DNA of 64,000 bases from a virus (Duplodnaviria; Heunggongvirae; Uroviricota; Caudoviricetes): IMG/VR virus record IMGVR_UViG_3300021066_000001; one strand, given 5' to 3'. The stretch's first letter is position 1, and the number at the start of each line of letters is the position of its first letter. Of this stretch, positions 35,555 through 37,088 are shown piece by piece. The notes beneath the pieces are model-generated. The model had not been told where the DNA came from. It did no database searches and saw nothing but the letters and a program-made list of their open reading frames with translations. A program made the position numbers and the translations under genes.

Positions 35555-35953
35555 CTATTGGTTCAGGATCGCGTCGTATATTTCGCTGAAGCAACGGCCC
35601 TTGAACTTCCGGACGCCGTCGACACCGTCAACACGCACCAGAAAATTGCTGCCGCGTAGTCCGACGACCACCATCTTGCGGCCGTTGTAGGTGATCTGCT
35701 TGAGGAGGGCCTTGTCACCGCACTTCTTTTTGAGGTGGATGATCGATTCTGGCGCCACGCTCTCGAGCCGGGGATCTGCGACCGCGGATTCAACGATCAC
35801 CGCTAGCGGGCAAGAGAATGCCGACTCGCTGTACTTGATGTTACCGATGTTTGCCTTGATGCCGTACTTCGCCCCGACTGTGGCTAGCGCGGCGTTCATC
35901 TCTTGGCGAAGGAGTTGAAGATTGTGTTTGTCGAACTTGGTGATCTTTTCCAC
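35555..35953 (-). CDS. hypothetical protein
   Basis: GTG start after early promoter. Confidence 0.6.
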   Translation of the reverse strand: MEKITKFDKHNLQLLRQEMNAALATVGAKYGIKANIGNIKYSESAFSCPLAVIVESAVADPRLESVAPESIIHLKKKCGDKALLKQITYNGRKMVVVGLRGSNFLVRVDGVDGVRKFKGRCFSEIYDAILNQ

Positions 35954-36027
35954 GTTTCCCGCCTCCAGGACCGTTGAATATGAGACATTATATCTCAAAA
36001 TCACTCAAAAGAACACACACAATTACG

Positions 36028-36733
36028 TGGTAGGAGAACTCGGATTCGAACCGAGACCTGTCGGATTAACCTGTCGTCAGGCTTTCAACGAGATTCGTGA
36101 CGAACTTTTCGCGATCATCTCCAGAAAGCTGCTGGTACTTAGACCAGCGCACTCGAACAATCTTCCATCCTCGTCCCTCAAGAAAAGCATTTCGGCGCTG
36201 ATCAGAGGAAACAATCCTAGGATCGACGTAGTGTTGTTCTCCGTCAATCTCGAGGTCGATCTTGCGATCAAGGAATGCGAAGTCAAGCGTGTAGGTAGAT
36301 TCCTGAAACTGCTCGACGAACTCTAGACCGTATTTCTTCAGGAGCTCTCCCCAGTATCTCTCCGGGAAAGATCTACCCTTAGATTTATGATTGAGTTTGT
36401 ATGGCACCATCTCAGGATGGTCACGCAGATACCTGATCCGCCCCTCAGAGATCTTCCTGCGCACTCTAGAGACATGCTTCGATTTCTTCGGATCGTGCTC
36501 TCACGAAGCTTCTGCCTAGTCTCTTCCGACATTTTGTAGGTTGGATTGGACCAGGAATTCTTCCCGGGCACTCTATTAGGATTCTGCTTACACGACCGCT
36601 CATGCATGATGAGCGCTTGACGTTGCGATGTGGATCTATTGCAGTGCTGACACATGAGCATGACGTCTATTTTACATAGCGCATCAAGCTCATGAATAAG
36701 TCCGCTGTGCTCAACCGTTAACACCACTCTCCC
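36028..36733 (-). tRNA. split tRNA, probably Lys(UUU): 5' half 36698-36733, 3' half 36028-36069, 628-nt insert
   Basis: halves pair (GGGAGAG/UUCUCCU; CGGA/UCCG); joining CUU+UUAA gives CU-UUU-AA. Confidence 0.75.
36066..36661 (-). pseudogene. Zn-finger/NUMOD3/DUF559(Vsr-like) homing-type endonuclease, frameshifted near 36465
   Basis: CQHC..HERSC, MSEETRQKLRES, LDFAFLDRKIDLEIDGEQHY in two consecutive frames. Confidence 0.7.
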
Positions 36734-36848
36734 GTCGAGGTGTAGCGGGATGTTTTCGGAGGTGCGTCATGTTTGACTCCTAAGTGAGTAGCTGGCGTTC
36801 TAGGTTTAAACTACGTGCCGCGGTAACTCACGCGCGCCCGGCCGGGTC

Positions 36849-37088
36849 TTAACCGGCATCTCCAGCTTGTTCTTGCTTGGCCTTGTTGAGATAGTCGAGG
36901 TGCTTCCTGATGTACCGCATGAAGAGCAGCGCCTTGTCCTCCGCGAGGAAGACGGCGGTGCCGATCTCGTTGGGATCGGTGGGCACGGGAAACTCGAAGC
37001 CGCACTCCGTCTTGTACCAGAGCTGGCCCTCACGGTAAAAGGAGAACCGCACGAGCTTGTTGCCTGAGACCATGTCCTTGAGATTCAT
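36849..37088 (-). CDS. hypothetical protein
   Basis: ATG at 37088, between tRNAs. Confidence 0.65.
   Translation of the reverse strand: MNLKDMVSGNKLVRFSFYREGQLWYKTECGFEFPVPTDPNEIGTAVFLAEDKALLFMRYIRKHLDYLNKAKQEQAGDAG

What the first reader, a model, noticed from the sequence alone, without database searches (positions are those of the whole stretch)
36028..36733. tRNA split at the anticodon by an ORF-filled insert with no room for a ribozyme core
Seen: intact halves around a 628-nt insert whose endonuclease ORF starts 36 nt in and whose TAA stop is the tRNA's own loop nucleotides. Joining after U and after the insert's last G restores Lys(UUU); another register gives Ile(UAU). No group I core fits, no canonical bulge-helix-bulge is seen, the ORF has a 1-nt frameshift, and no intact Lys(UUU) gene is in the window. 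Known: tRNA-Lys(UUU) is the target of PrrC and PARIS AriB. Inference: protein-dependent tRNA splicing or a homing element that inactivated the gene.
Basis: partly seen in the sequence, partly recalled or inferred. Interest (0 to 1): 0.7.

Follow-up and report, generated by a model that had tools for sequence, protein, structure and literature searches.

The report
Endonuclease gene splitting phage tRNA-Lys
A selfish DNA-cutting-enzyme gene has inserted, with no self-splicing intron, into the anticodon loop of a giant phage's only lysine tRNA(UUU) gene and has most likely killed it; related phages carry the same element at the same spot in several stages, so this illustrates how mobile introns arise, not a new kind of tRNA splicing.

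Summary
On the minus strand lie a tRNA-Lys(UUU) 5' half (36733-36698), a 628-nt insert (36697-36070) and the 3' half (36069-36028).

Eighty metagenomic loci carry the same tRNA uninterrupted. The insert is therefore a clean insertion between U34 and U35, and the Ile(UAU) reading is wrong.

The insert is only a homing-endonuclease cassette: a hairpin burying the ATG, a zinc finger, NUMOD3-like helices and a Vsr/DUF559 (EDxHD-type) nuclease. Its stop codon is borrowed from U36-A37-A38. One base is missing near 36486-36490.

There is no ribozyme (a relative gave a real group I hit as positive control), no bulge-helix-bulge, and no EndA or RtcB.

Relatives sit at tRNA-Lys genes in about 45 phage contigs, in four states:
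- bare inside the loop (the window and its sister L070)
- inside the loop, but followed by a complete tRNA that strands the old 5' half
- beside an intact gene
- beside a tRNA-Lys with a group I intron one base away

L070's split tRNA has a broken acceptor stem. Most likely the window's only tRNA-Lys(UUU) gene is dead, which is tolerable because AAA is 7% of Lys codons. Protein-dependent splicing is unsupported but not excluded. This scan has met related replacement-half cassettes on other DNA.

The parts
36698..36733 (-). 5' half of tRNA-Lys(UUU), positions 1-34: acceptor GGGAGAG, D arm, anticodon stem GCGGA, then C32 U33 U34
   Evidence: Sequence. ARAGORN cloverleaf. Matches the 5' halves of intact alleles such as L081 and L162.
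36070..36697 (-). 628-nt insert: an intron-less homing-endonuclease cassette, GC 48.7% against 57.3% for the window
   Evidence: No Rfam family at E<=10. Homologous throughout to free-standing endonuclease genes.
36653..36694 (-). Leader hairpin: arms CATGAGC (36694-36688) and GCTCATG (36659-36653) bury the start codon. The loop holds a degenerate T4-late-promoter-like box, tatgtaaaata (36678-36668).
   Evidence: Fold dG -24.7, z -4.7. An equivalent hairpin with a different sequence occurs in L070 (z -3.2). The box [TG]ATAAATA is found in 17 of 40 related loci against 0.02 expected.
36486..36661 (-). Endonuclease ORF, first frame: ATG at 36661, CxxC...HxxxC zinc finger, first NUMOD3-like helix (SEETRQKLRES)
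36481..36490 (-). Frameshift site: one base missing in cgaagaaatc, in the linker between the two NUMOD3-like helices
   Evidence: Alignment of both frames to 25 homologs and to L070. Reads could not be checked.
36066..36485 (-). Endonuclease ORF, second frame: second NUMOD3-like helix and a Vsr/DUF559 (EDxHD-type) nuclease domain with all invariant residues. The last sense codon GG|U spans the junction and the stop TAA is U36-A37-A38.
   Evidence: Pfam MTES_1575 and DUF559. Invariant E72, D74, H78, D81. Profile hits to 3hrl (7e-6) and 3r3p/I-Bth0305I (1e-4).
36028..36069 (-). 3' half of tRNA-Lys(UUU), positions 35-76: U35 U36 A37 A38, stem TCCGA, variable loop CAGGT, T arm CTCGG/CCGAG, acceptor TTCTCCT, A73, CCA
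   Evidence: Half-specific profile match to model positions 1-42 of the 3'-half model.

Best explanation
The insert is a ribozyme-less homing-endonuclease gene cassette sitting in its own probable target site, the anticodon loop of the phage's tRNA-Lys(UUU) gene, between U34 and U35.

The cassette has three parts:
- a short leader whose hairpin buries the start codon, with the remains of a T4-type late-promoter box
- an ORF for a zinc-finger / NUMOD3-like / Vsr-like (EDxHD-type) endonuclease
- no stop codon of its own, because translation ends on the tRNA's U36-A37-A38

Inferred mechanism: an active ancestor of the enzyme cut insert-free tRNA-Lys(UUU) genes of co-infecting phages at or near the anticodon loop. 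Recombinational repair then copied the cassette in (intron-less homing), and the insertion protects the carrier by splitting the site.

Inferred consequence: nothing removes the 628 nt from the transcript, so this tRNA gene is dead. The phage tolerates the loss because AAA is only 7% of its lysine codons, its tRNA-Lys(CUU) is intact, and hosts supply tRNA-Lys(UUU).

The element itself now looks to be decaying (one-base frameshift, degenerate promoter box).

Shown: the anatomy, the clean insertion, the absence of ribozyme and BHB motifs, the family's tie to tRNA-Lys, and the existence of empty alleles. Inferred: the cleavage site, the homing, and the lack of splicing.
For: 1. Clean insertion: 80 loci carry the same tRNA intact across the 34|35 junction.

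2. The whole insert is endonuclease gene. It aligns end to end with free-standing homologs of 195-230 aa, leaving only a 36-nt leader. No tRNA half is hidden in it. Its GC is 48.7% against 57.3% for the window.

3. No RNA family matches at E<=10, while the same Rfam library (E<=0.1) finds a true group I intron in L007 at 57.9 bits.

4. No bulge-helix-bulge, no EndA, no RtcB.

5. In most of the 44 IMG/VR loci, and in 7 further contigs, the homologous ORF touches a tRNA-Lys gene.

6. Five loci (L005, L033, L037, L166, L168) keep a complete orphan 5' half ending CTT or CTTT upstream of the ORF, plus a separate complete tRNA-Lys(UUU) just behind it. This shows that stranded halves can look perfect without having a partner.

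7. Sister copy L070 (100/98 support, 55% identity) has the same junctions and the same stop-in-loop geometry, but its acceptor stem pairs at 4 of 7 positions and an intact Lys(UUU) gene lies 4 nt downstream.

8. L007/L010 have the endonuclease gene directly in front of a tRNA-Lys(UUU) with a group I intron at 35|36, one base from the window's site. This is the layout of collaborative homing (PMC3984707).

9. The hairpin-plus-late-promoter leader is the known expression control of I-TevI, segB and mobE (PMC2988022).

10. AAA is 7.3% of Lys codons.
Against: - The window's two halves are still fully compatible (17 WC, 3 GU, 1 mismatch), within the range of intact alleles.
- This is the only Lys(UUU) gene in a genome that otherwise carries some 50 tRNAs.
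- The genome encodes two RNA-ligase-family proteins and a P-loop kinase, so sealing activities may exist.
- The junction geometry is conserved between two endonucleases only 55% identical, which could also reflect a functional constraint.
- No RNA or read data could be examined.
- Endonuclease activity and the target site are untested.
Confidence: 0.75

Rival explanations
1. Protein-dependent tRNA splicing: the 628-nt insert is cut out of the pre-tRNA by a protein endonuclease and the halves are joined by a phage RNA ligase, giving a working tRNA-Lys(UUU). Candidate endonucleases are the cassette's own Vsr/RAP-like nuclease or a host RNase.
For: - The halves are intact, and this is the only Lys(UUU) gene in the genome.
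- Two RNA-ligase-family ORFs and an AAA_33 kinase are present.
- The nuclease domain also scores weakly against RAP domains, which occur in RNA-processing proteins.
- Identical junctions occur in a 55%-identical sister.
Against: - No BHB motif, and no common junction structure between the window and L070.
- No EndA and no RtcB.
- L070's acceptor stem is broken.
- Many relatives keep or rebuild a complete tRNA-Lys next to the ORF, which would be needless if the split form were spliced.
- The window's endonuclease is frameshifted, and the genome has no intact paralog of the nuclease domain.
- I found no report of a protein-spliced tRNA intron in bacteria or phages.
Confidence: 0.07
2. The split gene is not a tRNA any more but has another use. 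The halves or the tRNA-like precursor might stabilise or process the endonuclease mRNA (RNase P / RNase Z cuts), or act as a decoy for anticodon nucleases that target tRNA-Lys(UUU).
For: - The stop codon and 3' end of the ORF are welded to the 3' half in both the window and L070.
- Orphan 5' halves upstream of the cassette are kept well preserved in five relatives.
Against: - Other family members do without flanking halves.
- Preservation can be explained by youth, or by the halves serving as homology arms for homing.
- There is no direct evidence of processing.
Confidence: 0.1
3. A cryptic self-splicing ribozyme (group I or an unknown class) overlaps the coding sequence. The U before the 5' junction and the G at the insert's end are its splice-site marks.
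For: U34 precedes the insert and G ends it. [quoted passage not shown] A true group I intron sits one base away in L007.
Against: - No Rfam match at E<=10 with lax filters on 1 kb, although the same Rfam library scores L007's intron at 57.9 bits.
- Only 36 non-coding nt, and they form an expression hairpin.
- The rest aligns codon for codon with free-standing homologs that have no exons to splice.
- U and G at the two ends have a 1 in 16 chance.
- P1 could be at most 3 bp (read from the sequence).
Confidence: 0.02
4. Assembly artefact: the metagenomic contig wrongly joins an endonuclease gene into a tRNA gene.
For: The window comes from an uncultivated IMG/VR record, and its reads could not be inspected.
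Against: An independent contig from another sample (L070 = L139) has the same junctions to the base with a 55%-identical endonuclease. The junctions are exact, and the reading frame runs across the 3' junction.
Confidence: 0.02

Closest known systems
Phage T4 SegB (free-standing GIY-YIG homing endonuclease in the tRNA gene cluster; PMC2330249)
   Same: A free-standing endonuclease gene living among phage tRNA genes. It recognises a conserved tRNA-gene motif, spreads by intron-less homing, and has a hairpin and late-promoter control of translation (PMC2988022).
   Different: SegB is GIY-YIG, lies between tRNA genes and recognises the T-psi-C stem-loop motif. The window's gene is Vsr/DUF559-type and lies inside an anticodon loop, splitting the tRNA.
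I-Ssp6803I (PD-(D/E)XK homing endonuclease of the group I intron in cyanobacterial tRNA-fMet; PMC3384342, and reference B105 in PMC3984707)
   Same: A restriction-fold endonuclease whose home and target is the anticodon region of a tRNA gene. Its target is pseudo-palindromic, as an anticodon stem-loop is.
   Different: I-Ssp6803I is carried by a self-splicing intron, so the tRNA survives. Here there is no intron. The nuclease is also the Vsr-like branch, with added zinc-finger and NUMOD3-like modules.
EDxHD / Vsr-like homing endonucleases (I-Bth0305I, PDB 3r3p; PMC3384342, PMC2677866)
   Same: Profile match of the nuclease domain (E 1e-4). The invariant residues E, D, H, D fit the family signature. 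The family is known from phages in introns, in inteins and as free-standing genes.
   Different: In the papers I read, I found no member of this family reported at a tRNA gene or inserted naked in an RNA gene.
mobE in Aeromonas phage Aeh1 nrdA and mobA in T4 gene 39/60 (endonuclease genes that split a host gene without an intron; PMC2988022, PMC3045599)
   Same: An intron-less endonuclease gene inserted inside a conserved gene, leaving two pieces.
   Different: Split proteins can reassemble and stay functional. A tRNA cut in its anticodon loop with 628 nt between the halves has no known way to work.
[quoted passage not shown]
   Same: Relatives L007 and L010 show this layout at tRNA-Lys(UUU), with the intron at 35|36.
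   Different: The window has the endonuclease gene itself, not an intron, at the site (34|35).
Fungal mitochondrial mobile endonuclease ORFs (mORFs) that bring a duplicate gene end (Allomyces atp6, Glomus atp6/atp9/cox2/nad3; PMC3630166)
   Same: Relatives L005, L033, L037, L166 and L168 resemble this: an old gene part is stranded, with an endonuclease ORF and a complete working copy next to it.
   Different: The window and L070 carry no replacement half, so the gene is simply broken. The fungal cases concern protein genes.

Membership tests
Group I self-splicing intron | Conserved catalytic core (P3-P9) detectable by covariance model RF00028 | tested here: not met
   No hit at E<=10 on 35900-36900 with lax filters. 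Positive control: L007 scores 57.9 bits, E 9e-13.
Group I self-splicing intron | U at the end of the 5' exon, G as the last intron base | tested here: met
   CTT|A...G|TTAA. This is a weak criterion, with a 1 in 16 chance.
Group I self-splicing intron | Room for a non-coding ribozyme of about 200 nt or more | tested here: not met
   36-nt leader. The remaining 592 nt align with free-standing endonuclease genes.
Archaeal/eukaryal protein-spliced tRNA intron | Bulge-helix-bulge motif at the two splice sites | tested here: not met
   The best register has 3 of 4 central pairs with 1-2 outer pairs, and the registers differ between the window and L070.
Archaeal/eukaryal protein-spliced tRNA intron | Splicing endonuclease (EndA, PF01974) and RtcB ligase available | tested here: not met
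   Neither is in the 389-kb genome. The host is unknown, so host enzymes could not be tested.
Vsr-like (EDxHD / DUF559) homing endonuclease | Vsr/DUF559 nuclease fold by sequence profile | tested here: met
   Pfam MTES_1575 39.3 bits and DUF559 35.5 bits. Profile against PDB: 3hrl 7e-6, 3r3p 1e-4.
Vsr-like (EDxHD / DUF559) homing endonuclease | Conserved acidic and histidine catalytic residues | tested here: met
   E72, D74, H78 and D81 are invariant in 26 sequences and present in the window copy. Their catalytic role is inferred from the family name and description in PMC3384342.
Vsr-like (EDxHD / DUF559) homing endonuclease | Site-specific DNA cleavage of the insert-free allele | not testable with these tools
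   Needs enzyme assays. The window copy is frameshifted.
Free-standing (intron-less) homing endonuclease gene | Recurrent linkage to one conserved target gene across unrelated genomes | tested here: met
   Touches tRNA-Lys genes in most of 44 IMG/VR loci and 7 other contigs, in loci whose GC I measured at 35-49% and in the 57% GC window.
Free-standing (intron-less) homing endonuclease gene | Insert-free alleles of the same site exist in the population | tested here: met
   80 intact alleles. Only 2 of the 92 loci with this tRNA family carry the endonuclease.
Endonuclease cassette with replacement gene part (mORF-like) | A duplicate of the displaced gene part that restores the gene | tested here: not met
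   No tRNA half inside the window insert. The half-specific profiles find only a 5' half upstream and only a 3' half downstream. The feature is met in relatives L005, L033, L166 and L168.

The most novel reading that the evidence does not exclude
The 628-nt, ribozyme-free insert is a true tRNA intron removed by proteins alone in a bacterial virus. The pre-tRNA would be cut at 34|35 on both sides of the insert, by the cassette's Vsr/RAP-like nuclease or by a host RNase, and sealed by one of the phage's RNA ligases. This would restore the phage's only tRNA-Lys(UUU).
Probability: 0.06. Interest if true: 0.9.

Novelty: new variant of a known kind. Interest (0 to 1): 0.45.

Why it matters
1. **Annotation.** tRNA finders run in intron mode report this as an intron-containing tRNA-Lys. 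In phages such calls should not be counted as working tRNAs without evidence of splicing.

2. **Evolution of mobile introns.** One endonuclease family shows four arrangements at one site (the tRNA-Lys anticodon loop):
- naked insertion
- insertion followed by a complete tRNA, with a stranded old half
- residence beside the intact gene
- partnership with a group I intron one base away

This is a natural series for the 'free-standing endonuclease first, mobile intron later' model. It also shows two intron-free ways of coping with insertion into an RNA gene.

3. **The link to tRNA-Lys.** It explains why these Vsr-like endonuclease genes are so regularly found welded to tRNA-Lys genes in phage tRNA arrays, often borrowing their stop codon from conserved tRNA nucleotides.

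4. **Phage biology.** A giant phage can lose a tRNA to a selfish element when its codon usage makes that tRNA nearly dispensable.

Tried and rejected
- **Megablast of the region against 50,697 phage records:** no match.
- **Exact searches for either half in IMG/VR:** none. A degenerate 3'-half pattern then worked.
- **Synteny through the flanking proteins:** the 149-aa neighbour has no relatives. The 83-aa neighbour has relatives, but their tRNA arrays are rearranged, so there is no syntenic empty site.
- **Read or RNA evidence:** The frameshift, population variants and spliced junctions therefore stay unchecked.
- **Halves from two different tRNA genes:** I considered this because of the G.U pairs and the G.A mismatch. 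I rejected it because intact alleles show the same features and match both halves. The phage's own tRNA-Lys(CUU) is unrelated in sequence.
- **A degenerate replacement 5' half in the ORF tail:** rejected, since the alignment score is below that of shuffles.
- **Ile(UAU) register:** rejected.
- **Programmed frameshift:** there is no slippery heptamer at the site (read from the sequence), and the sister copy is in one frame.
- **Group I, BHB, EndA, RtcB:** all negative.
- **The leader hairpin as a splicing element:** rejected in favour of translational control, because some free-standing copies have it too and it encloses a late-promoter box.
- **Intact paralog of the endonuclease in the genome:** only a faint NUMOD-like hit in another ORF.
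- **Further group I introns among 37 related loci:** none beyond L007/L010.
- **Origin of the orphan-5'-half loci:** I could not decide between a cassette that carries a replacement half and deletion of the orphan 3' half next to a tandem tRNA-Lys. The acceptor comparisons are ambiguous (read from the sequences).

Full report
**1. What is in the sequence**

The window is part of a 389-kb, 57.8% GC phage record. It carries a long minus-strand array of about 40 tRNA genes.

At the finding, the minus strand reads as follows:
- the first 34 positions of a tRNA, 36733-36698: acceptor GGGAGAG, D arm, anticodon stem GCGGA, then C32 U33 U34
- 628 nt of insert, 36697-36070
- the remaining tRNA, 36069-36028: U35 U36 A37 A38, stem TCCGA, CAGGT, T arm CTCGG/CCGAG, acceptor TTCTCCT, A, CCA

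It finds no other Lys(UUU) gene in the whole genome, although tRNA-Lys(CUU) is present and intact.

**2. It is one tRNA, cleanly interrupted**

A degenerate pattern for the 3' half found 92 loci in IMG/VR and JGI metagenomes.
- In 80 of the 93 matches (38 distinct alleles) the same tRNA is uninterrupted and reads ...GCGGACTT|TTAATCCG....
- Nothing was lost or duplicated at the insertion. Its position is unambiguous because the insert starts with A and ends with G, and the anticodon is UUU, not UAU.
- The features that made the cloverleaf look weak are native. G1.U72 occurs in L081, L084, L087 and L092. G27.A43 occurs in L127 and L114.
- The joined window tRNA has 17 Watson-Crick pairs, 3 G.U pairs and 1 mismatch. 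Intact alleles have 16-19, 2-5 and 0-2. The phage's other tRNAs fall in the same range.

**3. What the insert is**

It is 48.7% GC in a 57.3% GC window, and it consists of a gene and a 36-nt leader.

The gene encodes:
- a CxxC...HxxxC zinc finger
- two NUMOD3-like helices
- a Vsr/DUF559-type nuclease (Pfam MTES_1575 and DUF559)

A 26-sequence profile hits the DUF559 structure 3hrl (7e-6) and I-Bth0305I, 3r3p (1e-4), the type member of the Vsr-like 'EDxHD' homing endonucleases (PMC3384342). The invariant residues E72, D74, H78 and D81 are all present.

By alignment to homologs, the single defect is one missing base in cgaagaaatc (about 36486-36490), in the linker between the two helices. The last sense codon spans the 3' junction (GG|U), and the stop codon is the tRNA's U36-A37-A38.

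The leader folds into a hairpin that buries the ATG (dG -24.7, z -4.7).

**4. No splicing machinery is visible**
- A permissive Rfam scan of 1 kb finds no ribozyme. The same Rfam library scores a genuine group I intron in a related locus at 57.9 bits.
- An explicit search for a bulge-helix-bulge finds at best 3 of 4 central pairs with 1-2 outer pairs, in different registers in the two available examples.
- The genome has no EndA and no RtcB.
- It does have two RNA-ligase-family ORFs, a DNA ligase and an AAA_33 kinase, so sealing enzymes cannot be ruled out.
- It has no second copy of the nuclease domain.

**5. The relatives tell the story**

The closest homolog anywhere is 60% identical. In named phages, homologs are free-standing genes abutting a tRNA gene: tRNA-Arg(UCU) in T4-like coliphages and tRNA-Met in Rhizobium phages.

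In 44 IMG/VR loci and 7 further contigs, the ORF nearly always touches a tRNA-Lys gene. It often reads into the tRNA and takes its stop codon from conserved tRNA nucleotides:
- U8-A9-G10 in L014, L020 and L034
- the end of the anticodon stem in L005 and L037
- U36-A37-A38 in L028

Profiles for each tRNA half, together with inspection of the sequences, sort the loci into states.

(a) Bare split, 5' half - cassette - 3' half: only the window and L070.

(b) A complete orphan 5' half ending CTT or CTTT, then leader and ORF, then a different complete tRNA-Lys(UUU): L005, L033, L037, L166, L168. In L005, L033, L037 and L166 this tRNA's own 5' half lies in the ORF's last codons. In L168 it starts 10 nt after the stop. 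These tRNAs score 39-62 bits as tRNA. L030 and L071 have short remnants of this kind.

(c) An intact tRNA-Lys directly upstream or downstream with no visible scar (many loci). L023 has an orphan 3' fragment.

(d) L007/L010: the ORF runs into exon 1 of a tRNA-Lys(UUU) that carries a true group I intron between U35 and U36.

The 5' junction ...CTT|A is shared by the window, L070, L071, L005, L166 and L168.

On a tree of the endonucleases the window and L070 are sisters (100/98) at 55% identity. They sit in a weakly supported group with L005, L007, L071, L072 and L073. A second, well supported clade (L030, L033, L037) also has orphan halves.

**6. The sister copy**

L070 has an intact 183-aa ORF, a 576-nt insert, the same junctions, the same frame across the 3' junction and a hairpin of different sequence over its ATG.

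Its acceptor stem, however, pairs at only 4 of 7 positions (16 WC, 1 GU, 4 mismatches overall, an outlier). An intact tRNA-Lys(UUU) follows 4 nt downstream.

Among the 92 loci that carry this tRNA family, only L070/L139 and L123 contain the endonuclease at all. Empty sites are therefore plentiful.

**7. The leader is an expression module**

The box [TG]ATAAATA, the T4 late-promoter consensus, lies within 60 nt of the start codon in 17 of 40 loci, against 0.02 expected per 60-nt window. Strong ATG-burying hairpins occur in several free-standing copies too.

This is the arrangement described for I-TevI, segB and mobE, where read-through transcripts are silent and late transcripts are translated (PMC2988022).

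In the window the box is degenerate (tgtaaaata). The motif is rare in this genome (8 copies).

**8. Interpretation**

The most economical reading is intron-less homing into the anticodon loop.

An anticodon stem-loop is a natural pseudo-palindrome. That is the type of site used by I-Ssp6803I at tRNA-fMet (PMC3384342). A tRNA stem-loop motif is also what SegB reads (PMC2330249).

The endonuclease gene, sitting in the site, protects its carrier. In L007 a ribozyme does that job instead, which is the layout called collaborative homing (PMC3984707).

Where a complete tRNA-Lys follows the ORF, there are two possibilities, and I could not decide between them:
- the cassette brought a replacement 5' half, as fungal mitochondrial mORFs bring a replacement gene end (PMC3630166)
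- a neighbouring tandem copy was retained and the orphan 3' half deleted, for which L070 would be the precursor state

Either way, lineages keep a whole tRNA-Lys next to the element, and stranded halves persist in good shape without partners. Intact-looking halves are therefore no evidence of function. Where the split copy is redundant (L070), it is already broken.

In the window there is no backup gene. But AAA is only 7.3% of lysine codons (4.2 per 1000 codons, against 53.5 for AAG), so the loss should be cheap.

The frameshift and the decayed promoter box suggest that the element is past its active phase in this genome.

**9. What remains open**

No RNA or read data could be used, close relatives of this genome are withheld or absent, and the enzyme's cleavage site is inferred.

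The window's intact halves, its lack of another Lys(UUU) gene, the phage's RNA ligases and the conserved junction geometry keep a small probability (about 6%) that the insert is removed by proteins. That would be a first for bacterial viruses.

I found no paper describing an intron-less endonuclease gene inside a phage tRNA anticodon loop. Earlier notes of this scan, however, report related cassettes, mostly with replacement halves, at other tRNA genes in phages, CPR bacteria and archaea. The general phenomenon is therefore not unique to this window. What is particular here is the bare split state, the tRNA-Lys(UUU) specificity of a Vsr-like family, and the co-occurrence with a group I intron at the neighbouring position.

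Noticed in passing
L007:3375-3722 (and the same position in L010): A tRNA-Lys(UUU) with a genuine group I intron (RF00028, 57.9 bits) between U35 and U36. The upstream endonuclease ORF reads through exon 1 and stops 22 nt inside the intron. I did not search the literature specifically for group I introns in tRNA-Lys.
   Followed up: partly
window 40527-40563 (-): An abiF RNA motif (RF03085, 48 bits against a gathering score of 37) sits between tRNA-Phe and tRNA-Gln inside the phage tRNA array.
   Followed up: no
genome C1:375016-375234 (outside the window, next to the second tRNA cluster): A 219-nt stretch with perfect tRNA-like ends (GGGGCAG ... T arm GCGGG/CCCGC ... CTGCCCT ACCA) and about 127 nt in between. 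ARAGORN in intron mode calls it tRNA-Ala(tgc) i(31,127). It could be a tmRNA-like or other tRNA-shaped RNA.
   Followed up: no
window 43417-43509 (-): A 93-nt tRNA-Asn(GUU) with a long extra arm (Rfam tRNA 51.6 bits), next to a normal 75-nt tRNA-Asn(GUU).
   Followed up: no
L002/L003 (Escherichia phages F2 and vB_EcoM_WFL6982), locus 1219-1884: T4-like coliphages carry a 221-aa homolog of this endonuclease between tRNA-Asn and tRNA-Arg(UCU), overlapping the start of tRNA-Arg by 15 nt. In several GenBank records the ORF is not annotated at all.
   Followed up: partly
L014, L020, L034, L005, L037, L028 (ORF 3' ends): Endonuclease ORFs of this family routinely have no stop codon of their own. They terminate on conserved tRNA nucleotides of the downstream tRNA-Lys: U8-A9-G10, the end of the anticodon stem, or U36-A37-A38.
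   Followed up: yes
genome C1:335291-335962, C1:246562-247824 and C1:26927-27358 (outside the window): Two RNA-ligase-family ORFs (224 aa at 97 bits, 421 aa at 39 bits) and an AAA_33 P-loop kinase (the coordinates given are its Pfam match). This may be an RNA-repair set, of the kind phages use against anticodon nucleases.
   Followed up: partly
window 1448-1522 (-): A tRNA with anticodon CUA (ARAGORN labels it Pyl), i.e. an amber-reading tRNA. Earlier notes of the scan link it to UAG-gated genes in this window.
   Followed up: no
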